Source: Candidatus Saccharimonadota bacterium (GTDB lineage Bacteria; Pseudomonadota; Gammaproteobacteria; Enterobacterales; Enterobacteriaceae). From it: a DNA stretch of 11,305 nt. The stretch spans positions 225,995 to 237,299 of the forward strand of contig NZ_CP046218.1 in assembly GCF_012571345.1 (NCBI RefSeq), read 5' to 3'. Positions 1-11,305 of the stretch are shown here, piece after piece. The notes under the pieces are model-generated. The model saw nothing but the letters and a program-made list of their open reading frames with translations, did no database searches and had not been told where the DNA came from. Every line of letters starts with the position of its first letter. The stretch's first letter is position 1. The position numbers and the translations under genes were made by a program.

Positions 1-996
1 CAAGGGCAAATTTTACAAGAAGGTATTAATGAAGCAGGTGCATTTGCTTCTTGGATAGCCGCTGCAACATCATATTCTACTAATAATTTAGTTATGATCC
101 CATTTTATATTTATTATTCTATTTTTGGTTTCCAACGTATTGGTGATCTTTGTTGGGCCGCCGGAGATCAACAAGCTAAAGGATTTTTAATAGGAGCAAC
201 ATCTGGTAGAACTACTTTAAATGGCGAAGGTTTGCAACATGAAGATGGGCATAGTCATATACAATCTTTAACTATTCCAAATTGTATTTCTTATGATCCT
301 GCTTATATGTATGAATTAGCTATTATTATATATAATGGTTTATATCGCATGTATGGTTCACAACAAGAAAATATATATTATTATATAACTGTTACTAATG
401 AAAATTATATAATGCCTTCTATAAACAAGAATATATCTTCTAATATAATAGAAGGAATATGTAAGGGGATATATCATTTACGTAATATACATGGTAATAA
501 AAATAATTGCATACAATTATTAGGTTCTGGAGCAATATTACAACATGTCATACAAGCAGGGAAAATTTTATATCAAGAGTATGATATTAGTTCTCATATT
601 TTTAGTGTAACTTCTTTTACAGAAATTGCACGTGATGGACAAGATTGTGATCATTGGAATATGTTACATCCTATGGAAAAACGTCGTATACCTTATATAA
701 CTAATATTATGCAAAATCACCCTACAGTAGCTGCTACTGATTATATGAAAATTTTTGCAGAACAAATTAGGAAATATGTACCTACACATAATTATTTTGT
801 ATTAGGTACTGATGGCTTTGGTCGTTCTGATAGTAGAGCTAATTTACGTGATTTTTTTGAAATTAGTGCGCCATATATTGTACTTGCTGTATTGAATATT
901 TTATTAGATTTAAATATTATTAGTAATAATATTATTAACCATTTTATTAAAAAATATAATATTAATATTAATAAAAAGAATCCTAGAATCTCTTAA
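1..996 (+). CDS. aceE: Pyruvate dehydrogenase E1 component, C-terminal 331 codons (5' end lies left of the window)
   Basis: Frame 1 is open from base 1 (QGQILQEGINEAGAFASWIAAATSYSTNNLVMIPFYIYYS...), so the ORF-track Met at 94 is internal, not the start. Long near-identical blocks match E. coli AceE as I recall it (FGFQRIGDLCWAAGDQQA, GRTTLNGEGLQHEDGHSHIQSLTIPNCISYDPAY, VLGTDGFGRSDSR, C-terminal ..NPR..). TAA stop at 994-996. Followed by aceF and lpdA in canonical operon order. Confidence 0.96.
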   Translation, partial: QGQILQEGINEAGAFASWIAAATSYSTNNLVMIPFYIYYSIFGFQRIGDLCWAAGDQQAKGFLIGATSGRTTLNGEGLQHEDGHSHIQSLTIPNCISYDPAYMYELAIIIYNGLYRMYGSQQENIYYYITVTNENYIMPSINKNISSNIIEGICKGIYHLRNIHGNKNNCIQLLGSGAILQHVIQAGKILYQEYDISSHIFSVTSFTEIARDGQDCDHWNMLHPMEKRRIPYITNIMQNHPTVAATDYMKIFAEQIRKYVPTHNYFVLGTDGFGRSDSRANLRDFFEISAPYIVLAVLNILLDLNIISNNIINHFIKKYNININKKNPRIS

Positions 997-1007: not shown

Positions 1008-2510
1008 ATGAATAATAATATTATAATATTACCAGATATTGGTAATGACAATATGAAAGTTACTGAAATTTTAGTACAATTAGGAGATTATATATATAAA
1101 GACCAAAGTATTATTGTCGTAGAAAGTGATAAAACTTCTATAGAAGTACCCGCAGATCAAGAAGGTGAAATTAAAAAAATTTGTGTTAATGTTGGTGATA
1201 TAGTACATACTAATAGTCCAATTTTAATTTTATTAAATAAAGAAAAATTAACAAATAATACTTTAGGTATAAATAGCACTAAACAAAATAAAATACATAA
1301 TACTATAAATATTTTAGTGCCAGATATTGGCATACAAAAAATGTTAGTAAAAAAAATTTTAGTCAATGAAAAAGAACAAATACAAAAAAATCAATCATTA
1401 GTTATTATACAAGATAAGACAAATATTATAGAAATTGCATCATTATATGCTGGATATATTAATACTATTCATATAAAATTAAATAGTTATATAAAAAGTA
1501 ATGATATAATAATTACATTATGCATTAATAAAATAAGTAATGAGAACATAATATTAAATTATAATATGACATCATTTATTAAAAAAAATAATATGAAAGG
1601 GGGAACACAAATTATTCAAAAACAAACAGAACCAGAATATTTTTATGCTACTCCATATATAAGAAAAATAGCACGTCAATTTAATATTAATTTATCGACA
1701 ATTAAAGGTAGTGGTAATAAGAATAGAATTACAAAAGAAGATATTATGCAATATATAAAAAATAATAATCTTGATAATGTACGAACCAATGATAAAAATA
1801 TACATGAAAAATATGGTCCTATAGAAATAATTATTTTAAATAACATACAAAAAGCAACTAGTATTAATTTAACCAATAATTGGAAAAATATTCCTCATGT
1901 TACACAACATATTCAAGCGGATATAACTGAATTAGAATCTTTCCGTATTAAAAAAAATTATGAATTAAAAAATACACATAATATTAAAATTACTATACTT
2001 AGTTTTATGATTAAAATATGTGCTCATGCTTTAAAACAATTTCCTTATTTTAATTCATCTATAATAGATGAAACAACTTTAATTCTTAAAAAATATTATA
2101 ATATAGGTATTGCAGTTAATACACCACAAGGTTTAATAGTTCCAATAATATTTAATGTATTAGATAAGAATATTATTGAAATTTCTAAAGAAATCATACT
2201 TTTAGCAAATAAAGCTAAAAATAATAAATTAATGCCTCAAGATATTAAAGGTGGATGTTTTACTATTTCTAATTTAGGTCAATTACGTAGTAATTTTTTT
2301 ACTCCTATCATTAATGCGCCAGAAGTTTCTATTTTAGGAATATCACAAGCTATGATACAACCAATATGGGATGGTAATAAATTTATTCCAAAATTAATGT
2401 TACCATTGTCTTTATCTTATGATCATAGAATCATTAATGGTGTAGATGGTGTTATGTTTTTAAATTTCATATGTGATTTAATATCTGATATTAGAAATTT
2501 ATTAATTTAA
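1008..2510 (+). CDS. aceF: Dihydrolipoamide acetyltransferase (PDH E2), 500 aa, with two lipoyl domains
   Basis: Lipoyl domain 1 covers about aa 3-76, with lipoyl-Lys motif VESDKTSIEVPA (K42, nt 1131-1133). Lipoyl domain 2 covers about aa 100-174, with the more diverged IIQDKTNIIEIAS (K137, nt 1416-1418). The E1/E3-binding domain is ATPYIRKIARQFNINLSTIKGSGNKNRITKEDIMQYI (about nt 1644-1760). The C-terminal acyltransferase core has DHRIINGVDG (His473, nt 2424-2426) and ends SDIRNLLI, as in E. coli SDIRRLVM. An AAGGA Shine-Dalgarno lies 5 nt upstream of the ATG. Confidence 0.95.
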   Translation: MNNNIIILPDIGNDNMKVTEILVQLGDYIYKDQSIIVVESDKTSIEVPADQEGEIKKICVNVGDIVHTNSPILILLNKEKLTNNTLGINSTKQNKIHNTINILVPDIGIQKMLVKKILVNEKEQIQKNQSLVIIQDKTNIIEIASLYAGYINTIHIKLNSYIKSNDIIITLCINKISNENIILNYNMTSFIKKNNMKGGTQIIQKQTEPEYFYATPYIRKIARQFNINLSTIKGSGNKNRITKEDIMQYIKNNNLDNVRTNDKNIHEKYGPIEIIILNNIQKATSINLTNNWKNIPHVTQHIQADITELESFRIKKNYELKNTHNIKITILSFMIKICAHALKQFPYFNSSIIDETTLILKKYYNIGIAVNTPQGLIVPIIFNVLDKNIIEISKEIILLANKAKNNKLMPQDIKGGCFTISNLGQLRSNFFTPIINAPEVSILGISQAMIQPIWDGNKFIPKLMLPLSLSYDHRIINGVDGVMFLNFICDLISDIRNLLI

Positions 2511-2535: not shown

Positions 2536-3960
2536 ATGATAATATTTATGAACAAAAATCAAAAAACACAGATAATAGTTATTGGTGGTGGCCCAGCGGG
2601 ATATTCAGCTGCTTTTCGTTGTAGTGATTTAGGAATGCAAACTACTATTATAGAAAAATATGATAATTTAGGAGGTGTATGTTTAAATGTCGGATGTATT
2701 CCTTCTAAAGCTTTATTACATATTGCAAATATATTAAAAGAACAAAAAATATTAATGAAATATGGCATTTTAAATCATGTTTGTGAAATTAATATTTCTA
2801 AATTATTATTATGGAAAAATAATATTATTACTAAATTAACTAATGGATTAAAATTTTTAGCAGAGAAAAGAAATGTAAAGATTATTAATGGTATGGCACA
2901 TTTTATTAATGATAACAGTGTAGAAGTAATAAATAATAATATTACTACAATAATTAATTTTGATAATGCTATTATCGCAACTGGTTCAAAACCAAATAAT
3001 ATGACTGGTATGTATAAAAATGACCCAAGAATATGGAATTCTACAGATGCTTTAATGTTAAAAACTATACCAAAAAAAATGTTAATTATAGGTGCTGGTA
3101 TTATTGGATTAGAAATGGCTACAATTTATTGTGCTTTAGGTGCAAAAATAGATATTATAGATTCATCTGATATATTATTACCAGAAACTGATATAGACAT
3201 TACAAATATATATAAAAGTGTTATTCATCAAGAATTTAATATAATATTACATACTAAAATTATCTCTATAGATACTACACAAGACCAATTACATGTACAT
3301 TTAACTAGTGATAATAACCAATCTGTATATGCAAAATATTATGATATTATTTTAATAGCTATAGGGAGAACTCCAAATTCTCAATACATTAATAAAAATT
3401 TTGGTAAATTAGATATTAATGAACAAAATTTTATTAACGTTGATAATCAAATGAGAACTAATATACCAAACATATATGCTATTGGTGATGTAATTAGCAC
3501 TCCTCTGTTAGCACATAAAGGTATACATGAAGGACATTTAGCAGCTGAAGTTATAGCAGGGAAAAAACATTATTTTATACCCAAAGTTATACCTTCAATA
3601 GCATATACTAATCCTGAAATTGGTTGGGTGGGTTTGACTGAAAAACAGGCTCAACATAATAATATAAAATATAAAACATCATCGTTTCCCTGGCAAGCGT
3701 TAGGTCGCGCTCTTGCAACGAATTCTGAACATGGCATAACAAAACTAATTATAGAAAAAGAATCTAATAGAGTTATTGGTGGCGCTGTTATTGGACATAA
3801 TGCAGGAGAATTATTAGGAGAAATTAGTTTGGCTATAGAAATGGGTTGTGATATTGAAGATATAGCATTAACTATGCATGCACATCCTACATTATATGAA
3901 TCCATTGGTTTAACAGCAGAAATATTAACTGGTACTATTACTGATATTTTAAACAAATAA
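2536..3960 (+). CDS. lpdA: Dihydrolipoyl dehydrogenase (E3), 474 aa from the first ATG; an alternative start at 2548 gives 470 aa
   Basis: FAD-binding GGGPAGY, redox-active disulfide GGVCLNVGCIPSKALLH, NAD-binding GAGIIGLEM, and C-terminal His-Glu dyad region HAHPTLYES. Co-linear with E. coli LpdA over the full length. Alignment to the E. coli N-terminus (MSTEIKTQVVVLG) fits the second ATG (MNKNQKTQIIVIG) slightly better. Neither start has a Shine-Dalgarno. Confidence 0.95.
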   Translation: MIIFMNKNQKTQIIVIGGGPAGYSAAFRCSDLGMQTTIIEKYDNLGGVCLNVGCIPSKALLHIANILKEQKILMKYGILNHVCEINISKLLLWKNNIITKLTNGLKFLAEKRNVKIINGMAHFINDNSVEVINNNITTIINFDNAIIATGSKPNNMTGMYKNDPRIWNSTDALMLKTIPKKMLIIGAGIIGLEMATIYCALGAKIDIIDSSDILLPETDIDITNIYKSVIHQEFNIILHTKIISIDTTQDQLHVHLTSDNNQSVYAKYYDIILIAIGRTPNSQYINKNFGKLDINEQNFINVDNQMRTNIPNIYAIGDVISTPLLAHKGIHEGHLAAEVIAGKKHYFIPKVIPSIAYTNPEIGWVGLTEKQAQHNNIKYKTSSFPWQALGRALATNSEHGITKLIIEKESNRVIGGAVIGHNAGELLGEISLAIEMGCDIEDIALTMHAHPTLYESIGLTAEILTGTITDILNK

Positions 3961-4032
3961 TATTTGATTATTAAAAAACAAATATGTTTAGATAGTATGA
4001 TATAAATCAAATTATATAAAATAACTATAGGA

Positions 4033-4069
4033 TATAATAATTTTATTTATAATAAAATGTTTTTATAAT
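4033..4069 (+). promoter_or_regulatory. Candidate -10 elements upstream of the GH28 gene (two perfect TATAAT hexamers at 4033-4038 and 4064-4069)
   Basis: Both hexamers lie in the 113-bp lpdA-GH28 spacer. No convincing -35 lies at 16-18 bp from either. TATAAT is expected by chance in sequence this AT-rich, so this is only a candidate. Confidence 0.2.
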
Positions 4070-4073
4070 ATAT

Positions 4074-5351
4074 ATGTTTAATTATAAACAATTTAATGCT
4101 ATTAGAAAAAATATAAGTTCTATTTATACTAATCAAAAACAACATTATATATATACGCATTTAAAAAATAAAACTGATATCACCATAATTATTAATAATA
4201 CTATAACTAATTGTCATAATAATGGTGGTGGAATTATTGTGATACCAAATGGAGAATATTATTCTGGTCCCATACATCTTAAAAGTAATGTACACATACA
4301 TTTACAAGATGATGTTATCATAAAATTTTATACTGATCCTAAAAAATATTTTAATGTTTTAACACGTTGGGAAGGTATTGATTGTATTAATTACACACCA
4401 TTAATTTATGCTTATAAACAAAAAAATATTGCCATTACAGGACATGGCGTCTTAGATGGTCAAGCTAGTATGAATAATTGGTGGTCTTGGAAAAATGATA
4501 TAAATGGCAATTATTTACAAAATAAAGATGTAAAAGTTTTAATAAATATGATGCGGAATAATATTCCGATAAAAAACAGAATTTTTGGATACCATCATTA
4601 TCTTCGTCCTAATTTTATACAATTTTATTTATGTACTAATATATTAATTAAAAATATTACTATCATTAATTCTCCTATGTGGGAAATACATCCTGTATTA
4701 AGTAATAATATACATATTAGTCATGTTCATATCAACAGTATTGGTCCAAATAATGATGGTTGTAATCCAGAATCTTGTAACAATGTATTAATTGAACATT
4801 GTTCTTTTAATACTGGTGATGACTGCATTGCAATTAAATCTGGTAAAAATAATGATGGCAGAAAGAATAATATTCCTTCTAGTAATATTATTATACAAAA
4901 CTGTTTAATGTATAAAGGTCATGGTGCTGTAGTATTAGGTAGTGAATGTAGTGGAGGAATTAATAATATTTTTATAAAAAATTGTCAAACATTTGGGAAA
5001 AAATTACAATCATTTTTAAGAATTAAAAATAATGCTGTTCGTGGTGGAAATATATATGAAATATATTTACAAGATACTAAGATTTACTGTGTAAATTCTA
5101 GTATTTTAAATATAAATTTTGTATATGATGAAGGCCAACATGGTTCTTACATACCTAAAGCATATAATATTTATATAAATAATATATATGCATATATGTG
5201 TTACCGTGTAATGGATATTAACACATTTCAGAAGTCTTATGTAAATAATATTTTTTTAAAAAATAATGTTTTCCAGCATATACAATATCCTTCAAAAATA
5301 AATATTTGTAATCCTAATAATATTTATTTATTTAATACTAAATATTTATAA
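4074..5351 (+). CDS. Glycoside hydrolase family 28 polygalacturonase (pectinase), 425 aa, probably of the bacterial exo-acting clade; no signal peptide
   Basis: All four GH28 signature motifs are present in order and with the expected spacing. They are NNDG (N226-G229, catalytic D228 at nt 4755-4757, equivalent to NTD), GDD (G248-D250, nt 4815-4823), GHG (G282-G284, nt 4917-4925) and RIK (R316-K318, nt 5019-5027). Further blocks typical of bacterial GH28 enzymes are GGGIIVIPNGEYYSGPIHLKSNVHIHL, LTRWEGI..NYTPLIYAY, NIAITGHGVLDGQ, WWSWK, HYLRPNFIQFY and IINSPMWEIHPVLS. The ATG at 4074 is the only possible start, because an in-frame TAA lies at 4053-4055 with no start codon between them. Confidence 0.88.
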   Translation: MFNYKQFNAIRKNISSIYTNQKQHYIYTHLKNKTDITIIINNTITNCHNNGGGIIVIPNGEYYSGPIHLKSNVHIHLQDDVIIKFYTDPKKYFNVLTRWEGIDCINYTPLIYAYKQKNIAITGHGVLDGQASMNNWWSWKNDINGNYLQNKDVKVLINMMRNNIPIKNRIFGYHHYLRPNFIQFYLCTNILIKNITIINSPMWEIHPVLSNNIHISHVHINSIGPNNDGCNPESCNNVLIEHCSFNTGDDCIAIKSGKNNDGRKNNIPSSNIIIQNCLMYKGHGAVVLGSECSGGINNIFIKNCQTFGKKLQSFLRIKNNAVRGGNIYEIYLQDTKIYCVNSSILNINFVYDEGQHGSYIPKAYNIYINNIYAYMCYRVMDINTFQKSYVNNIFLKNNVFQHIQYPSKINICNPNNIYLFNTKYL

Positions 5352-6497
5352 TAATATATTTTTCATGATATTATAATAAATTTTATATAATGTATATATA
5401 TCGTTAATATGTGTACATTCGTCTATTTTATGAATAGTAGAATTAATTAAACCTAATTCTACTATTTGTGCGCCAGTAGTTATAATAAATCTACCATCAG
5501 AAATACCACCATCATTTATAATAGTAGGTATCAAATTATTTACTGTGGCAATACTTTTTTTAACAATACTAATTAATTGTTTTTTTTGATTCATAGCATT
5601 ACTGATAAATGGTTTGCCAATTAAATTCCAATCAAATTGATAATTATAAATATTATATTTATTAAGAAGTAAATGTAATTTATCTAAAATAGTACTATAA
5701 TGGATGGTATGCATATATCTAAAATTGATTTGTAAAATAACATGATTAGGGATTACATTAGTATTATTTTGTATAGAAGATATAAGATTAGTAATCTGCA
5801 TACTTGTATTAAGTAAGTCTTTATTTTTAGGTTCCCAAGTAATGTTTAATAATTCATATAAAAAAGGTATGACAGTATGAATTGGATTTATTGCTAATTT
5901 ATGATAAGCTACATGCCCTTGTATACCATAAATTTTTAAAGTAATATTTAAAGAACCTCTTCTACCATTTTTAATATTATCACCAATTATTTGGTAACTT
6001 GTTGGTTCGCCTAATATGCAATAATCTATTTGCTCTTTTTTTTTCATTAAATGATTAATAACTTGTTTAGTACCATCTTGTGCCGTACCTTCCTCATCAG
6101 AAGTAATTAAAAAAGCTATTTTACCGTGATGTTGGTTATGTTTTTGTATAAAAGATTTAGCTGCAAAGACCATTGCAGCTAACGCACCTTTCATATCGCA
6201 TGTGCCTCTACCATACATGATATTATTATGAATCACACCGTCAAAAGGAGGATATTTCCATAAAGATATATCTCCTGGAGTAACAATATCTGTATGTCCT
6301 GCAAAAACTAATGTTGGAGTATTATTATTAGCATGATAAGCCCAAAAATTATTTGTTTGATTAATATTTATTGAATTAATTGTAAAATTTAATTTTTGTA
6401 AAAAAGAAATTAATATTTTTTGACAACCGTAATCTTTAGGACTTATAGATGGACACTGAATTAAACTTTTTGTAAATTCTATAATTTTTTTTAACAT
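5346..6497 (-). CDS. dapE: Succinyl-diaminopimelate desuccinylase (M20 metallopeptidase), 383 aa
   Basis: Co-linear with E. coli DapE. Metal-ligand and catalytic blocks are intact: FAGHTDIV, GRGTCDMKG, ITSDEEG, LGEPT, KNGRRGSL, GIQGHVAY, STIHKIDE. The TAA stop is the reverse complement of 5346-5348 and overlaps the end of the GH28 gene. Confidence 0.94.
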   Translation of the reverse strand: MLKKIIEFTKSLIQCPSISPKDYGCQKILISFLQKLNFTINSININQTNNFWAYHANNNTPTLVFAGHTDIVTPGDISLWKYPPFDGVIHNNIMYGRGTCDMKGALAAMVFAAKSFIQKHNQHHGKIAFLITSDEEGTAQDGTKQVINHLMKKKEQIDYCILGEPTSYQIIGDNIKNGRRGSLNITLKIYGIQGHVAYHKLAINPIHTVIPFLYELLNITWEPKNKDLLNTSMQITNLISSIQNNTNVIPNHVILQINFRYMHTIHYSTILDKLHLLLNKYNIYNYQFDWNLIGKPFISNAMNQKKQLISIVKKSIATVNNLIPTIINDGGISDGRFIITTGAQIVELGLINSTIHKIDECTHINDIYTLYKIYYNIMKNILL

Positions 6498-6567: not shown

Positions 6568-8895
6568 TTATTTTTTTAATAAAGATAATTTCCATACTTC
6601 TTCAATATTTTTTACAGGATATATTTTTAGAGCAGTTATAATATTTTTAGGAATATTTTCTAGATCTCTTTTATTTTGATATGGTATTAATACTATATCT
6701 ATACCACCTCGATGTGCAGCTAATAATTTTTCTTTTAAACCACCAATCGGCAATACTTGCCCTCTTAAAGTAATTTCACCAGTCATAGCAATATTGGCTT
6801 TCACAGGAAAATTACTTAAACTAGATACTAAAGCAGTACAGATAGCTATTCCAGCACTAGGACCATCTTTTGGTGTAGCTCCTTCAGGAACATGGACATG
6901 TATATCAGTAGTTTTATAAAATTCATTATTAATATCTAACTTTTTTATACGAGCCCTTACAACGGTTAAAGCAGCTTGGATTGATTCCTGCATAACTTCA
7001 CCTAAAGAGCCAGTATATGTTAATTTTCCTTTACCAGGGATACATGCGGTTTCAATAGTTAATAAATCTCCTCCAGCTTCTGTCCAAGCTAAGCCAGTAA
7101 CTTGACCAATGCGATTAATATTTTCTGCTTTCCCATAATCATATTTTTTAACACCTAAATATTTTTTTAAATTTTTTTTATTTATTTCAATAAATTTAGT
7201 ATTTTGATCTATTAAGATAGTTTTAACAGCTTTTCTACATAAAGACGATAATTCTCGTTCTAAATTTCTTACACCAGCCTCTCTCGTATAATACCTAATA
7301 ATATCCAAAATAGTGTCTTGTTGTATAATTAATTCTTGTTTTTTTAAAGCATTACGATAAAATTGTTTAGGTAATAAATATTTTGTTGCGATATTTAGTT
7401 TTTCATCTTCAGTATATCCAGATAATTTAATTACTTCCATCCTATCTAATAATGGTAATGGTATATTGGTAACAGAATTTGAAGTGGCAACAAACATAAT
7501 ATCAGATAGATCATAATCTATTTCTAAATAATGATCATTAAAAGACATATTTTGTTCTGGATCTAATACTTCTAATAATGCTGAAGAAGGATCACCACGC
7601 ATGTCATATGCCATTTTATCAATTTCATCTAATAAAAATAATGGATTTTTTACTCCTGAACGTGTAATTTTTTGTATAATTTTACCCGGCATAGAACCAA
7701 TATATGTTCTTCTATGACCCCTAATTTCACCCTCATCACGAATACCACCCAAAGCCATTCTAATAAATTTTCTACCTGTTGTTCTTGCAATAGATTTACC
7801 TAAAGATGTTTTACCAACTCCAGGTGGTCCAACAAAACATAAAATTGGTCCTTTAATTTTATTAGATCTATTATGTACTGCTAAATATTCCAAAATACGT
7901 TCTTTTACATGTTCTAAACCAAAATGATCTTGATCTAATGTAATTTTAGCTTTATATAAATCTTTTTTTAATCTACTTTTTTGAAACCAAGGTATTTGAA
8001 TCATCCATTCAATATATCCTCGTACAACGGTTGCTTCTGCAGACATTGTAGACATCATACGTAATTTATGTAATTCAGAATATGTTTTTGCTTTTGCATC
8101 TTTTGGCATTTTAGCTCTGTCTATCTTTTTTTTTAAAATATCATTTTCATCAGGATAAACATCCATTTCACCTAATTCTTTTTGTATAGCTTTTATTTGT
8201 TCATTTAAATAATATTCTCTTTGACTCTTTTCCATTTGTTGCTTAACTCTATTACGAATTTTTTTCTCAACTTGCAAAAGATCAATTTCAGATTCCATAA
8301 TTGCCATAAGATATTCTAATCTTTCACTAATATTAAACATTTCTAATATTAATTGTTTATCAGATAATTTTAAAGGCATATGAGAAGCTATAGTATCAGC
8401 TAGTTTATCTACATGATGAATATTATTTAAAGAAGATAAAACTTCAGGTGGAATTTTTTTATTTAATTTGATATATCCTTCAAATTGATTAACAGCAGTA
8501 CGTATTAAAGCTTTTTGTTCTTTAGGTTCAATCATAGGAGAATTAATATATATAATTTGCGCTGTAAAATATTCTCCATTATCTGATAAAATATCAATTT
8601 GCGCCCTTTGTATTCCTTCAACTAATATTTTTAATGTACCATCAGGCAATTTTAACATTTGTAATATTGATGTTACTGTACCAACTGTAAATAAATCATT
8701 AATATCAGGGTTATCTTTCGCAGCATTTTTTTGTGCTACAAGCATAGCTTTTTTATTATTTTTCATTACTGCTTCTAAACAACGTATAGATTTTTCTCTA
8801 CCAATAAATAAAGGAATTACCATATGAGGATATATTACAACATCACGTAATGGTAATACAGGCATTACAATAGGTTCTGAATGATTAACATCCAT
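6568..8895 (-). CDS. lon: ATP-dependent Lon protease, 775 aa
   Basis: The N-terminus MPVLPLRDVVIYPHMVIPLFIGREKSIRCLE is nearly identical to E. coli Lon. Walker A is GPPGVGKTS and Walker B is LFLLDEIDK. The protease domain has PKDGPSAGIA (catalytic Ser) and GGLKEKLLAAHRGG (catalytic Lys). An AGAGGA Shine-Dalgarno lies 7 nt upstream of the ATG. Confidence 0.98.
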   Translation of the reverse strand: MDVNHSEPIVMPVLPLRDVVIYPHMVIPLFIGREKSIRCLEAVMKNNKKAMLVAQKNAAKDNPDINDLFTVGTVTSILQMLKLPDGTLKILVEGIQRAQIDILSDNGEYFTAQIIYINSPMIEPKEQKALIRTAVNQFEGYIKLNKKIPPEVLSSLNNIHHVDKLADTIASHMPLKLSDKQLILEMFNISERLEYLMAIMESEIDLLQVEKKIRNRVKQQMEKSQREYYLNEQIKAIQKELGEMDVYPDENDILKKKIDRAKMPKDAKAKTYSELHKLRMMSTMSAEATVVRGYIEWMIQIPWFQKSRLKKDLYKAKITLDQDHFGLEHVKERILEYLAVHNRSNKIKGPILCFVGPPGVGKTSLGKSIARTTGRKFIRMALGGIRDEGEIRGHRRTYIGSMPGKIIQKITRSGVKNPLFLLDEIDKMAYDMRGDPSSALLEVLDPEQNMSFNDHYLEIDYDLSDIMFVATSNSVTNIPLPLLDRMEVIKLSGYTEDEKLNIATKYLLPKQFYRNALKKQELIIQQDTILDIIRYYTREAGVRNLERELSSLCRKAVKTILIDQNTKFIEINKKNLKKYLGVKKYDYGKAENINRIGQVTGLAWTEAGGDLLTIETACIPGKGKLTYTGSLGEVMQESIQAALTVVRARIKKLDINNEFYKTTDIHVHVPEGATPKDGPSAGIAICTALVSSLSNFPVKANIAMTGEITLRGQVLPIGGLKEKLLAAHRGGIDIVLIPYQNKRDLENIPKNIITALKIYPVKNIEEVWKLSLLKK

Positions 8896-8935: not shown

Positions 8936-10207
8936 TTATGTTTTATTAATAATATTATTTTTATATTCTATAATTGGTTCAGATAAGTTTTTCACGACTT
9001 CATAAGTAATATTGATTTTATAAACATTAGATAATGCAGGTATATTATACATAATATCTAGTAATATTTTTTCCATAATAGTTTTTAACCCTCTTGCTCC
9101 TGTATTTAAAATAAGAGCTTGTCGTACTATTTCCTGGAGTGCTTGGATATCGAACACTATATCAACGTTATCATATTTAAATAACTGTTGATATTGTTTT
9201 ATTAAAGCATTATGCGGTTTGGTCAAAACTTGCATTAATCCTCTACTATCTAAAGCATCTAAAGTTACTATAATAGGTAAACGACCTATAAATTCTGGTA
9301 TTAGACCAAATTTGATTAAATCCGTGGTCTGAATTTGTTTATTAATATTATTAGTTTGATGATTTATATGTTTATTTTGTTTTTTTATATTAAATCCAAT
9401 ACTATGAGTAATTAAATTTGATCTATCAGTTATAATTTGATCTAACCCATAGAACGAACCAGCACAAATAAATAATATGTTATTTGTATTAATTTGTATG
9501 AATTCTTGTTGTGGATGTTTTCTTCCTCCTTGAGGCGGTACAGATACTATAGAACCTTCAATAAGTTTTAATAAAGCTTGTTGAACACCTTCACCAGATA
9601 CATCTCTTGTGATAGAAACGTTTTCAGATTTTTTAGCAATCTTATCAATTTCATCTATATAAATAATGCCTTTTTCTGTATTGTCAATATTATAATTAGC
9701 ATTTTGTAATAGTTTTTGCAAAATATTTTCAACATCCTCGCCAACATATCCTGCTTCTGTAAAAGAAGTGGCATCAGTAATTACAAAAGGTACATTTAAT
9801 ATACGTGCTAATATTTTTGCTAATAATGTTTTCCCGCTACCTGTAGGTCCAATGAGCAAAATATTACTTTTTTCAATGTCAATATCATTATTATGTTTTT
9901 GATTATATAAACGTAATCTTTTATAATGATTATAAATAGCTACAGCCAGGGTTTTTTTAGCATTATCTTGATTAATAACATATTTATTTAAATAATGAAA
10001 AATGTTTTGGGGTTTTAATAATACATCATCATACATATTATTATTGTGATTTTTTGATTTATTAAAAATGTTATTACATAATAATATACATTGTTTGCAA
10101 ATATATGCTTTATGACCTGATATTAATTTACCAATTTCATTTTGAAATTTACCACAAAAAGAACAACATAAAATTTTATTTAAATCATCCTTTTTATTTA
10201 TCATCAT
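8936..10207 (-). CDS. clpX: ClpX AAA+ unfoldase subunit of ClpXP, 423 aa
   Basis: N-terminal zinc-binding C4 motif (CSFC...CKQC), Walker A GPTGSGKT, pore-1 loop GYVG, Walker [13 protein letters not shown] loop [10 protein letters not shown], and IGF ClpP-docking loop (HSIGFN). The start aligns residue-for-residue with E. coli ClpX up to CSFCGK. Confidence 0.98.
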
Positions 10208-10258: not shown

Positions 10259-10882
10259 TTAATGAGAAGATATAATATCATCTATTAAGCCATATTGCAT
10301 TGCTTCCTTAGAAGTTAAAAACCTATCTCTTTCTGTATCTTGTTCAATAGTAGAAATATTTTGTCCTGTATGTAATGCTAATAATGTATTTATATGTTTT
10401 TTAATTCTTAAAATTTCTTGAGTATATATTTCTATATCTGTTGCTTGTCCTTGATAACCACCTAATGGTTGATGTATCATAATCCGTGCATTAGGTAAAC
10501 CAAAACGTTTTTTTTTTGCACCTGCAGCTAATAAAAATGCTGCCATAGAACAAGCTTGACCAATACAAATAGTATTAATATCTGGTTTAACAAGTTGCAT
10601 TGTATCATAAATAGATAAACCTGATGTTATAATACCTCCTGGACTATTTATATAAAGATAAATATCTTTGTGACAATTTACAGATTCTAAAAATAACATT
10701 TGTGCTATAATTAAATTAGACATCCTATCTTCTATAGAACCGGTTAAAAAAATAATTCTTTCTTTTAATAATTTGGAAAAAATATCATAAGAACGTTCAC
10801 CACGACTATTTTGCTCTATAACCATAGGAACGTAATTATAATAATTAGGTATATTATTTATATTGTTATTATTGTTATACAT
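10259..10882 (-). CDS. clpP: ClpP protease proteolytic subunit; preferred start at 10882 (207 aa), while the ORF-track maximum start at 10918 gives 219 aa
   Basis: The Ser-His-Asp triad contexts are intact ([25 protein letters not shown]). [29 protein letters not shown] is nearly identical to E. coli. The Met at 10882 gives 207 aa (E. coli ClpP is 207 aa as I recall) and has an AGGA (complement of 10891-10894) 8 nt upstream. The 10918 ATG has no Shine-Dalgarno and adds 12 residues with no homolog counterpart. Confidence 0.95.
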
Positions 10883-11305
10883 TGTACATATCCTATTAAT
10901 TTGTATATAATCATGCATAAATTATAATAGTTATATAAAATGTTAATTTAATTAGTTATTTTAACTATGCATATATCAAAATATATATAAATTATTATTT
11001 AATCATGTCTTAAAATGTTTTTATTTATTTACATAAAAAAATAATATATTTACTACAAAAATTTGTTATATGTGTAAAATATATTAAATATTTTTATATG
11101 ATATAACATACTAACCTGATATATATAATCTTATATATTAATGTTATAAATAAAATATTAACATACTAATTTTTAACTTAATTTAATATTAACATATATA
11201 TAATATTTACATGAAATACATGTTTTCATATTTATATATTAAATACTTATCAATAAAATTATTTGATAAATGTTTAATATATAAAATAAAAATATTATTT
11301 ATATT
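10883..11305. other. Long (at least 423 bp, runs off the window) extremely AT-rich non-coding region upstream of clpP
   Basis: No ORF of meaningful length occurs on either strand. Hand count of 11221-11280 gives 6 G+C in 60 nt. Every other spacer in the window is 113 bp or shorter. Confidence 0.7.
10891..10894 (-). promoter_or_regulatory. Shine-Dalgarno (AGGA) supporting the clpP start at 10882
   Basis: The + strand reads TCCT at 10891-10894, which is AGGA on the - strand, 8 nt upstream of the ATG at 10882-10880. Confidence 0.45.

What the first reader, a model, noticed from the sequence alone, without database searches (positions are those of the whole stretch)
4074..5351. Intact GH28 polygalacturonase embedded among core housekeeping genes of a minimal, symbiont-type genome
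Seven of the eight genes here are core metabolism or proteostasis genes (aceEF-lpdA, dapE, lon, clpXP) in a tightly packed, very AT-rich context typical of obligate insect endosymbionts. The eighth is a plant-cell-wall pectinase. Its complete catalytic set (NNDG with D228, GDD with D249/D250, GHG with H283, RIK with R316/K318) argues it is under purifying selection rather than decaying. Its base and amino-acid composition (Asn/Ile/Lys/Tyr-rich; hand-counted lines at 15-28% GC) matches the neighbours. No IS, integrase, tRNA or flanking direct repeat is present, so it is a long-resident gene, not a recent insertion. Genomes this reduced usually keep only what the host needs, so this looks like a digestive symbiosis in which the bacterium supplies pectin depolymerisation to a herbivore. 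From memory, such systems are described for tortoise-beetle (Stammera) and reed-beetle (Macropleicola) symbionts. If the source is a different lineage, this would be a new independent case.
Basis: partly seen in the sequence, partly recalled or inferred. Interest (0 to 1): 0.85.

Follow-up and report, generated by a model that had tools for sequence, protein, structure and literature searches.

The report
Known reed-beetle symbiont pectinase gene
This is a real, intact pectin-digesting enzyme gene in a tiny beetle-symbiont genome, but it is the already published chromosomal pectinase of the Macroplea mutica reed-beetle symbiont, so it is confirmed and not new.

Summary
It lies between aceEF-lpdA and dapE-lon-clpXP in a 24.5% GC window, with no tRNA, mobile element or flanking repeat.

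The GH28, DapE and Lon proteins are 100% identical to QJC31241.1, QJC31242.1 and QJC31243.1 of 'Enterobacteriaceae endosymbiont of Macroplea mutica' (Ca. Macropleicola muticae). The gene is 'Mmut-cPG' of Reis et al. 2020, and its expression was measured in a 2025 EMBO Reports paper.

- **Exo-type enzyme.** It resembles the Thermotoga maritima exo-polygalacturonase 3JUR (335 bits, TM 0.93), not endo-polygalacturonases or the Stammera/plasmid type.
- **No signal peptide.** All five chromosomal orthologues lack one. The plasmid PGs, the Stammera PG and most free-living relatives have one.
- **Purifying selection.** dN/dS is 0.18, within the range of the housekeeping neighbours.
- **Conserved promoter box.** An FNR-type palindrome (3997-4010) lies 30 nt upstream of a TATAAT in all five lineages. 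This gives a concrete site for the published but untested idea that FNR controls the pectinases.

Verdict: already known, low interest, with two modest new leads.

The parts
4074..5351 (+). Chromosomal GH28 gene (cPG; QJC31241.1 / WP_168895580.1), 425 aa, exo-polygalacturonase type, no signal peptide
   Evidence: ORF. PF00295 81.4 bits. Exact match to the M. mutica symbiont protein. 3JUR 335 bits and TM 0.93. No N-terminal hydrophobic segment.
4749..4760 (+). Codons for NNDG 226-229 (catalytic D228)
   Evidence: N226, D228 and G229 are invariant in 22 homologues.
4815..4823 (+). Codons for GDD 248-250 (catalytic D249, D250)
   Evidence: Invariant in alignment A1.
4917..4925 (+). Codons for GHG 282-284 (H283)
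   Evidence: Invariant in A1.
5019..5027 (+). Codons for RIK 316-318 (substrate-carboxylate binding R316, K318)
   Evidence: K318 is invariant and R316 is at least 90% conserved.
3961..4073 (+). lpdA-cPG spacer (113 bp, 9.7% GC) holding the putative cPG promoter
   Evidence: Aligned with four orthologous spacers.
3997..4010 (+). FNR-type palindrome ATGAT-ATAA-ATCAA (9/10 match to TTGAT-N4-ATCAA). It is conserved in all five cPG-bearing lineages examined and holds the only invariant G and C of the spacer.
   Evidence: All 10 specified columns are invariant, against 32 of 93 outside the box. It is absent from the lpdA-dapE spacers of four lineages that lost cPG.
4033..4038 (+). TATAAT -10 hexamer, starting 30 nt after the box centre in all five lineages. 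With a start site about 7 nt further on (about 4045), the box centre falls near -41.5.
   Evidence: The geometry is inferred; the transcription start site is not mapped.
1..996 (+). aceE, 3' part (pyruvate dehydrogenase E1), runs off the window start
   Evidence: PF17831 and PF22613. Full-length orthologues in L005-L008.
1008..2510 (+). aceF (E2, two lipoyl domains)
2536..3960 (+). lpdA (E3)
5346..6497 (-). dapE, convergent with cPG and overlapping its 3' end by 6 bp
   Evidence: NF009557 449.7 bits. Exact match to QJC31242.1.
6568..8895 (-). lon
   Evidence: Exact match to QJC31243.1.
8936..10207 (-). clpX
10259..10918 (-). clpP

Best explanation
The ORF is the chromosome-encoded GH28 ('cPG') of Candidatus Macropleicola muticae, the obligate symbiont of the reed beetle Macroplea mutica (genome about 0.47 Mb). 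It is a functional enzyme under selection, of the exo-polygalacturonase type. [quoted passage not shown] Those oligomers are produced from homogalacturonan by the symbiont's second, plasmid-encoded endo-polygalacturonase (pPG), which carries a signal peptide. Together the two enzymes complete pectin digestion for a host that has cellulases but no pectinases.

- Shown here: identity, fold, catalytic residues, exo-type affinity, purifying selection, ancestral synteny, clean loss in other lineages, absence of any export signal.
- Shown by others: co-occurrence with pectin-rich host plants; better oligomer breakdown in gut homogenates of species carrying both PGs; transcription, slightly higher in adults.
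- Inferred: the exact substrate and cleavage mode. Recombinant Mmut-cPG was lost during purification, so it has never been assayed.
- Inferred: the route to the substrate. Because the protein is leaderless, this is probably release from lysing extracellular symbiont cells in the Malpighian-tubule lumen.
- Inferred: transcriptional control by the CRP/FNR-family regulator FNR through the conserved box at 3997-4010.
For: - Identity: GH28, DapE and Lon are 100% identical to proteins of the M. mutica endosymbiont, on a contig of 467,736 bp. Orthologues are 93% (M. appendiculata), 69% (Neohaemonia), 64% and 61% (two Donacia) identical.
- Family and fold: PF00295; AF2 pLDDT 91.5; eight GH28 key residues conserved (residue list as in PMC10059216).
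- Exo type: the best PDB hit is T. maritima exo-poly-alpha-D-galacturonosidase 3JUR (335 bits, E 5e-99), then galacturonidase 5OLP (227 bits); the endo-PG 1BHE reaches only 49 bits. Foldseek TM scores are 0.93 and 0.87, against 0.64-0.68 for endo-PGs. The best NCBIfam model is an alpha-D-galacturonidase. Identity to the Stammera plasmid PG is only 25-29%.
- Selection: dN/dS is 0.178 between the two Macroplea symbionts; neighbours give 0.06-0.41.
- Residency: lpdA-GH28-dapE synteny holds in five lineages. Lineages without cPG have a 98-313 bp spacer at the same place with no remnant.
- Leaderless: the five cPGs start at the mature domain. Maximum 10-residue hydropathy is 0.65-1.54, against 2.84-3.38 for four pPGs and the Stammera PG. 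Of 17 free-living relatives, 7 have a twin-arginine motif and 8 a Sec-type leader.
- Promoter: the FNR-type box and -10 hexamer are conserved in sequence and spacing. pPG promoters keep a perfect TTGAT half-site at a similar distance from a -10 hexamer.
- Literature: PMC7289800 and PMC12508126. The latter's supplement gives baseMean 3037, log2FC 0.895 and padj 0.0039 for WP_168895580.1.
Against: - No enzymatic activity has ever been measured for this protein. The published heterologous expression failed.
- The published oligomer-digestion evidence comes from gut homogenates. These would release a cytoplasmic enzyme artificially, so they do not show that cPG reaches the gut lumen.
- The score against the BT4155 galacturonidase equivalog model is far below its cut-off (269.8 against 800), so the exact specificity (homogalacturonan oligomers or RG-I-derived oligomers) is open.
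- The FNR-type box could be a CRP site (8/10 match to TGTGA-N6-TCACA by my own count).
- Matches to the FNR consensus with one mismatch or fewer are not enriched in the window (3 found, 2.1 expected). The case therefore rests on conservation and geometry.
- The five lineages share ancestry, so the invariant columns are not independent.
- Life-stage regulation of cPG is weak (log2FC 0.89).
Confidence: 0.85

Rival explanations
1. cPG is a strictly cytoplasmic enzyme that serves the symbiont rather than the host. Oligogalacturonides made by the secreted pPG are imported and cleaved to galacturonate inside the bacterium as its own carbon source, as with the T. maritima exo-polygalacturonase (intracellular there, from my own recollection of the literature).
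For: All five cPG orthologues lack a signal peptide, while pPG keeps one. The closest characterised relative is the T. maritima exo-PG. The published activity data used homogenates.
Against: Losses of cPG track host-plant shifts, which points to a host-level benefit (PMC7289800). A genome of about 0.47 Mb is unlikely to keep an oligogalacturonide transporter plus the uxaCBA-kdgK-eda pathway; I could not check this because only about 20 kb around the gene was available. Neither paper reports such genes ('galacturonate' and 'transporter' each have 0 occurrences in PMC7289800).
Confidence: 0.15
2. The enzyme is not a homogalacturonan exo-PG. It is an alpha-D-galacturonidase acting on rhamnogalacturonan-I backbone oligosaccharides, like Bacteroides thetaiotaomicron BT4155.
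For: The best NCBIfam model is the BT4155 alpha-D-galacturonidase (269.8 bits, full-length alignment). The galacturonidase structure 5OLP is the second-best structural match (TM 0.87).
Against: The score is far below the equivalog cut-off of 800. The T. maritima exo-PG scores clearly higher in sequence (335 against 227 bits) and in structure (TM 0.93 against 0.87). No rhamnogalacturonan lyase or rhamnosidase partner is reported for these symbionts. Published gut-homogenate data show better breakdown of galacturonic acid oligomers when cPG is present.
Confidence: 0.1
3. The gene is a decaying relic or a recent horizontal insertion with no current function.
For: Several related symbionts have lost it. 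Recombinant protein was unstable.
Against: dN/dS is 0.178. All catalytic residues are intact. The reading frame is full length in five lineages that diverged to 61% identity. It is transcribed at a level similar to lon and clpX (baseMean 3037). GC and GC3 are indistinguishable from the neighbours. It occupies the same position in five genomes. There is no tRNA, IS or repeat.
Confidence: 0.02
4. The conserved palindrome upstream of cPG is a CRP site, or a regulator-independent promoter element, and not an FNR site. CRP activates pectinase genes in Dickeya and Pectobacterium, and all Donaciinae symbionts keep crp.
For: The site reads TATGA-N6-TCAAA, an 8/10 match to the CRP core (sequence; my own count). 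CRP is present in all four symbionts studied. CRP control of pectinolysis in soft-rot Enterobacterales is established knowledge (from my own knowledge).
Against: Both half-sites lack the G/C that distinguishes CRP sites (GTGA/TCAC). The right half-site is a perfect FNR half-site (TTGAT on the bottom strand), and the pPG promoters keep a perfect TTGAT. fnr is reported as the only gene whose presence correlates perfectly with the pectinases (PMC12508126).
Confidence: 0.25

Closest known systems
Mmut-cPG, the chromosome-encoded GH28 of 'Candidatus Macropleicola muticae' (Reis et al. 2020, Nat Commun 11:2964; GenBank QJC31241.1)
   Same: It is the same gene: 100% protein identity, the same neighbours and the same genome. 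The published synteny, monophyly, loss with host-plant shifts and inferred role in oligomer digestion all apply.
   Different: Nothing differs. The exo-type assignment by sequence and structure, the missing signal peptide and the upstream FNR-type box were not found in the two papers or in the searched supplements of the 2025 paper.
[quoted passage not shown]
   Same: Closest solved structure (335 bits; TM 0.93, rmsd 2.1 A, 36% identity). The alignment is nearly gap-free over residues 33-401, and the conserved GH28 key residues N226, D228, D249, D250, H283, G289, R316 and K318 are all present in cPG. The N-terminus has a similar length without an obvious leader.
   Different: It comes from a hyperthermophile and forms a tetramer (title of Pijning et al. 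2009, cited). The oligomeric state and activity of cPG are unknown. cPG is extremely Asn/Ile/Lys-rich.
Plasmid-encoded PG of Donaciinae symbionts (pPG) and the PG of Candidatus Stammera capleta (tortoise-beetle symbiont)
   Same: Both are GH28 enzymes in genome-reduced beetle symbionts that supply pectin digestion to the host. pPG is in the same organism as cPG, and its promoter carries a related TTGAT element.
   Different: They belong to a different GH28 lineage (25-29% identity to cPG). They are endo-acting (Mmut-pPG gives dimers, trimers and larger oligomers), plasmid-borne, and have a clear Sec-type signal peptide that cPG lacks.
Bacteroides thetaiotaomicron BT4155 alpha-D-galacturonidase (NCBIfam NF049892; galacturonidase structure PDB 5OLP, whose correspondence to BT4155 I assume from the names and did not verify)
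   Same: Same exo-type GH28 clade, with a full-length alignment.
   Different: The score is 269.8 bits against an equivalog cut-off of 800, so cPG is not an equivalog. BT4155 belongs to an RG-I utilisation locus and is exported.
Class II FNR-activated promoters of Escherichia coli (TTGAT-N4-ATCAA centred at -41.5)
   Same: 9/10 match to the consensus. The fixed 30-nt distance from the site centre to a TATAAT places the centre near -41.5.
   Different: The transcription start is not mapped and binding has not been tested. The symbiont's FNR may have diverged in ligand and specificity (PMC12508126).

Membership tests
Glycoside hydrolase family 28 (CAZy GH28 / Pfam PF00295) | Significant match to the family profile above the curated threshold | tested here: met
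   PF00295 81.4 bits against a cut-off of 22.9, E 8.3e-23
Glycoside hydrolase family 28 (CAZy GH28 / Pfam PF00295) | Four conserved active-site segments (NxD, G/QDD, G/SHG, RIK) with the three catalytic Asp residues | tested here: met
   NNDG 226-229, GDD 248-250, GHG 282-284, RIK 316-318. Invariant or at least 90% conserved in 22 homologues.
Glycoside hydrolase family 28 (CAZy GH28 / Pfam PF00295) | Right-handed parallel beta-helix fold | tested here: met
   AF2 model with pLDDT 91.5, pTM 0.92 and all-beta coils. TM 0.93 to 3JUR.
Glycoside hydrolase family 28 (CAZy GH28 / Pfam PF00295) | Hydrolysis of alpha-1,4-galacturonosidic bonds | not testable with these tools
   The published attempt to assay recombinant Mmut-cPG failed because the protein was lost on buffer exchange (PMC7289800)
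Exo-polygalacturonase / galacturonidase clade of GH28 (EC 3.2.1.67 type, T. maritima 3JUR) | Closer in sequence and structure to characterised exo-enzymes than to endo-PGs | tested here: met
   3JUR 335 bits and 5OLP 227 bits, against endo-PG 1BHE at 49 bits. TM 0.93 and 0.87, against 0.64-0.68.
Exo-polygalacturonase / galacturonidase clade of GH28 (EC 3.2.1.67 type, T. maritima 3JUR) | Releases GalA monomers from the non-reducing end | not testable with these tools
   Only indirect evidence exists: gut homogenates of species with both PGs degrade oligomers better
NCBIfam NF049892 alpha-D-galacturonidase BT4155 equivalog | Score at or above the curated equivalog cut-off (800 bits) | tested here: not met
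   269.8 bits. cPG is a relative, not an equivalog.
Endo-polygalacturonase of the Stammera / Donaciinae-plasmid (pPG) type | Close sequence relationship to Stammera PG or pPG, and an N-terminal signal peptide | tested here: not met
   25-29% identity to Stammera plasmid PGs. There is no hydrophobic N-terminal segment: maximum KD10 is 1.34, against 2.84-3.38.
Chromosomal pectinase (cPG) of Donaciinae symbionts (Ca. Macropleicola and relatives) | Identity or orthology with the published genes, and the conserved position between lpdA and dapE | tested here: met
   100% identical to QJC31241.1. Orthologues of 61-93% identity sit in the same position in four other symbiont genomes.
Exported protein (Sec or Tat substrate) | N-terminal signal peptide (basic n-region, hydrophobic h-region, or a twin-arginine motif) | tested here: not met
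   The ORF cannot extend upstream, because it starts at the first start codon after a stop. The cPGs begin at the mature domain of their relatives. There is no h-region and no RR motif. No dedicated predictor such as SignalP was available.
Class II FNR-dependent promoter | TTGAT-N4-ATCAA-like palindrome | tested here: met
   ATGATATAAATCAA at 3997-4010, a 9/10 match, conserved in five lineages
Class II FNR-dependent promoter | Site centred near -41.5 relative to the transcription start | tested here: inconclusive
   A TATAAT starts 30 nt after the centre in all five lineages, which fits -41.5 if the start is 7 nt after the hexamer. The start site is not mapped, and TATAAT-like hexamers are common in 90% AT DNA (22 promoter-like sites found against 24 expected).
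Class II FNR-dependent promoter | An fnr gene in the genome, and binding of its product to the site | not tested
   fnr is reported present in symbMMUT and only in pectinase-encoding symbionts (PMC12508126). The fnr gene lies outside the DNA available here, and binding needs an experiment.

The most novel reading that the evidence does not exclude
The chromosomal pectinase is a leaderless exo-galacturonidase transcribed from an FNR-activated class II promoter, and the secreted plasmid endo-PG shares a related element. If so, oxygen availability, or whatever ligand the symbiont's FNR now senses, would be the switch for pectinase production as the symbiont moves between intracellular larval organs and the adult Malpighian-tubule lumen. 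Delivery of cPG to the gut would then depend on symbiont lysis and not on secretion. That would be a defined cis-regulatory circuit surviving in a 0.47-Mb genome that has only four or five transcription factors.
Probability: 0.3. Interest if true: 0.45.

Novelty: already known. Interest (0 to 1): 0.17.

Why it matters
The finding itself adds nothing new. The gene, its organism, its evolutionary history and its presumed role were published in 2020, and its expression in 2025.

The case shows that the first-stage reading was accurate. It gave the correct family, the correct catalytic residues, the correct ecological inference and the correct candidate lineage.

Two small points may help people working on this symbiosis:
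- cPG has no export signal while its partner pPG does. The published evidence for cPG's digestive role (from homogenates) therefore does not show that the enzyme reaches the gut.
- A conserved FNR-type box at class II spacing upstream of cPG turns the published hypothesis that 'FNR may regulate pectinases', which rests on co-occurrence, into an experiment with a defined 14-bp target.

Tried and rejected
- **Genome-collection scan.** A scan of GTDB species representatives for relatives of the GH28 returned only distant Bacteroidota and Verrucomicrobiota hits at 25-30% identity, and not the symbionts. The organism was identified by exact protein look-up instead.
- **GH28 remnants in loss lineages.** I searched the lpdA-dapE spacers of four cPG-less symbionts. 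tblastn found nothing significant (best E 0.065 in a tiny database). blastn gave only low-complexity AT-rich noise, which I disregarded.
- **Donaciinae plasmids in PLSDB.** Guessed accessions were not in the collection. The plasmid PGs were reached through the Stammera PG instead.
- **A mistyped spacing.** My first count of the palindrome used TGAT-N6-ATCA and missed the site. I corrected it to N4.
- **The box as a sigma-70 -35 hexamer.** I rejected this because the distance to the conserved TATAAT is about 30 nt, not 17 (sequence; my own count).
- **A trigger-factor remnant in 10919-11305.** None was found.
- **Rfam.** No hits in the window.
- **Recent horizontal transfer or decay.** Rejected on composition, synteny, dN/dS and expression.
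- **Not run.** I did not use the representative-protein HMMER search, a second structure prediction, or a formal GH28 phylogeny. The published phylogeny (PMC7289800, Supplementary Figs 1-2) already places cPG and pPG in separate clades.
Full report
**1. What is in the window**

Six-frame ORF listing gives eight long genes packed into 11.3 kb at 24.5% GC. Profile searches identify them as the 3' part of aceE, then aceF and lpdA on the + strand. Next comes a 425-aa ORF at 4074..5351 (+), followed by dapE, lon, clpX and clpP on the - strand.

The 425-aa ORF matches Pfam Glyco_hydro_28 well above threshold (81.4 against 22.9 bits).
- NNDG at 226-229
- GDD at 248-250
- GHG at 282-284
- RIK at 316-318

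The gene's GC (0.231), GC3 (0.115) and Asn/Ile/Lys/Tyr/Phe content (0.48) fall in or next to the range of its neighbours. There is no tRNA and no Rfam family. Only short AT-rich chance repeats surround the gene.

**2. Where it comes from**

An exact-sequence look-up shows that the GH28, DapE and Lon proteins are 100% identical to QJC31241.1, QJC31242.1 and QJC31243.1. These belong to 'Enterobacteriaceae endosymbiont of Macroplea mutica', on a 467,736-bp chromosome. The nearest other proteins are the orthologues in four related symbionts:
- Macroplea appendiculata, 93%
- Neohaemonia nigricornis, 69%
- Donacia provostii, 64%
- Donacia proxima, 61%

After these, identity drops to about 53% for free-living bacteria.

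This organism is 'Candidatus Macropleicola muticae'. Reis et al. 2020 (PMC7289800) sequenced 26 reed-beetle symbionts and described one GH28 on the chromosome and one on a plasmid. They showed that both sit in the same position in all genomes that have them. They showed that their phylogenies mirror the symbiont tree, and that both were lost when hosts moved to pectin-poor Poales. They also synthesised this very gene as 'Mmut-cPG'.

A 2025 EMBO Reports paper (PMC12508126) measured its transcription. Its supplement gives WP_168895580.1 a baseMean of 3037, similar to lon and clpX, with log2FC 0.895 (adults over larvae) and padj 0.0039.

**3.

*Purifying selection.* I computed Nei-Gojobori dN/dS between the M. 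mutica and M. appendiculata symbionts. GH28 gives 0.178 (dS 0.18). The range is 0.062 (lon) to 0.41 (aceF) for the six neighbours. The pectinase is as constrained as lpdA, dapE and clpX.

*Long residency.* The order lpdA-GH28-dapE-lon-clpX-clpP is identical in five lineages.

*Loss elsewhere.* In four lineages without cPG, lpdA and dapE are separated by only 98-313 bp of roughly 11% GC spacer. These are D. tomentosa, D. versicolorea, D. cinerea and Plateumaris sericea. No GH28 remnant is recognisable in any of them.

**4. What kind of GH28**

Sequence comparison with all PDB chains puts the Thermotoga maritima exo-poly-alpha-D-galacturonosidase 3JUR first (335 bits, E 5e-99, nearly gap-free over residues 33-401). 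A Bacteroides galacturonidase (5OLP) comes second at 227 bits. The classical endo-PG 1BHE reaches only 49 bits.

An AlphaFold2 model built from 22 homologues is confident (pLDDT 91.5). It superposes on 3JUR at TM 0.93 (rmsd 2.1 A) and on 5OLP at 0.87, but on endo-PGs only at 0.64-0.68.

The best NCBIfam model is an alpha-D-galacturonidase equivalog. However, the score of 269.8 bits is far below its 800-bit cut-off, so the exact specificity stays open. The PG of Stammera, which is the type related to the Donaciinae plasmid PG, is only 25-29% identical.

The enzyme is therefore best described as an exo-acting galacturonidase. This agrees with the published indirect inference that cPG improves digestion of galacturonic acid oligomers left by the endo-acting pPG. 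No activity has been measured directly, because recombinant Mmut-cPG was lost during buffer exchange.

**5. A point not found in the literature: no export signal**

In the alignment, all five symbiont cPGs begin a few residues before the first conserved helix of the mature domain. Free-living relatives carry 22-78 extra N-terminal residues. Of 17 such relatives examined:
- seven have a twin-arginine motif (S/T-R-R-x-hydrophobic-hydrophobic)
- eight have a Sec- or lipoprotein-type hydrophobic leader
- two have none

The maximum 10-residue Kyte-Doolittle hydropathy in the first 60 residues is 0.65-1.54 for the cPGs, and the maxima lie within or next to the mature domain rather than in a leader-like segment. 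It is 2.84-3.38 for four plasmid PGs and the Stammera PG, and there the maxima form textbook n-h-c signal peptides. The ORF cannot be extended upstream.

Neither paper mentions signal peptides for the pectinases ('signal peptide' and 'secret' each have 0 occurrences in PMC7289800).

The symbiont therefore pairs an exported endo-PG with a leaderless exo-enzyme. Either cPG is released when extracellular symbiont cells in the Malpighian-tubule lumen lyse, or it works inside the bacterium on imported oligomers. The published homogenate assays cannot tell these apart. I favour release and host benefit, because cPG losses track host diet. The cytoplasmic alternative remains open (about 0.15).

**6. 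A second point: a conserved FNR-type box**

The 2025 paper proposes that FNR regulates the pectinases. Its only basis is that fnr is the one gene whose presence matches theirs. No binding-site analysis appears in the text or the supplements, and the regulator column for GH28 in their table is 'NA'.

In the 113-bp, 9.7% GC spacer upstream of cPG I find ATGATATAAATCAA at 3997-4010. This is a 9/10 match to the FNR consensus TTGAT-N4-ATCAA.

I aligned the five orthologous spacers, which have otherwise diverged strongly. The results are:
- All 10 specified positions of the box are invariant, against 32 of 93 columns outside it (Fisher p about 6e-5; the columns are not independent).
- The box contains the only invariant G and C of the spacer.
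- The box opens the most conserved 16-column stretch.

In all five lineages a TATAAT begins exactly 30 nt after the centre of the palindrome, and the centre lies 67-70 nt from the ATG. With a start site 7 nt after the hexamer, the site centre falls at -41.5, which is the class II FNR/CRP activation geometry.

The core TGAT-N4-ATCA occurs 12 times in the 121 kb examined, against 5.1 expected. Five of the 12 are these promoters. The lpdA-dapE spacers of the four cPG-less genomes have none.

The four plasmid PG promoters I could retrieve keep an invariant TTTTTGAT, which is a perfect FNR half-site. They also have a degenerate second half and a -10-like hexamer 29-30 nt from the centre.

Several caveats apply:
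- One-mismatch matches to the consensus are not enriched in the window (3 found against 2.1 expected).
- TATAAT-like hexamers are abundant in DNA this AT-rich.
- The lineages share ancestry.
- The site is also an 8/10 match to the CRP core, although both half-sites lack the CRP-specific G/C.

I rate functional FNR-family control at about 0.5.

**7. Comparison with known systems and verdict**

The gene is a member of GH28 (profile, motifs and fold all tested and met). It belongs to the exo-PG/galacturonidase clade by similarity, though its activity is untested. It is identical to the published Donaciinae cPG. It is not of the Stammera/pPG endo type, not an equivalog of BT4155, and not a Sec or Tat substrate.

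Novelty class: already known. Interest is low for the finding as submitted. The leaderless state and the conserved promoter box are modest, testable additions to a published system.

Noticed in passing
window 10919-11305 (and L005 16803-17389; L006 14944-16209): Upstream of clpP the window ends in a 387-bp spacer of 9.8% GC. At this position the Neohaemonia symbiont still has a 421-aa trigger factor gene (tig) between clpP and bolA. The Macroplea and Donacia symbionts have none, and tblastn finds no tig remnant. The spacer is 85% identical between the two Macroplea symbionts, which is about the synonymous-site divergence.
   Followed up: partly
window 1008-2510 vs L005 7169-8428: aceF is 500 aa with two lipoyl domains in the M. 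mutica symbiont, 419 aa in the M. appendiculata symbiont, and 485-510 aa in the others. It also has the highest dN/dS of the block (0.41). This suggests the number of lipoyl domains changes between sister symbionts.
   Followed up: no
L012 1505-3226 and 3324-3943 (Plateumaris sericea symbiont): lon is called as two ORFs (574 aa and 205 aa) instead of one of about 777 aa. This may be a frameshift, an incipient pseudogene or a sequencing error.
   Followed up: no
L009 5165-5477 (D. tomentosa symbiont chromosome) and protein P0280: The D. tomentosa symbiont has no GH28 between lpdA and dapE (313-bp spacer), but it has a plasmid GH28 (P0280). A sentence in the Results of Reis et al. 2020 refers to 'a PG in the symbiont chromosome' for this species. 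Their Discussion says the genome copy was lost. The Results sentence looks like a slip.
   Followed up: partly
L014 1-2834 vs L015 1-2898, L016 1-2916, L017 1-2829 (symbiont plasmids): The roughly 6.4-kb plasmids carry a 942-971-aa invasin/intimin-like ORF (IAT_beta, BIg21, InvE_AD domains) directly upstream of pPG, plus a prephenate dehydratase gene and trfA. In the M. appendiculata plasmid no gene is called in the corresponding 2.8 kb, so the adhesin may be degraded there.
   Followed up: no
L016 2971-4284 (D. versicolorea plasmid pPG): The annotated start gives MLNNYELNK before MKILFYKK. The other pPGs start at the MK(I/K)LF methionine, so the annotated start is probably nine codons too far upstream.
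   Followed up: no
window 4554-4568 and 4431-4448, - strand: Two terminator-like hairpins followed by T-runs lie antisense inside the GH28 coding region (2 found against 0.2 expected in shuffles). They are 800-900 nt beyond the end of dapE, so they are probably chance products of the few GC-containing codons.
   Followed up: no
window 10811-10918 (clpP 5' end): The clpP ORF starts with a 36-residue Asn-rich extension ([36 protein letters not shown]). This makes it 219 aa, against 198-212 aa in the related symbionts. The true start codon may be internal.
   Followed up: no
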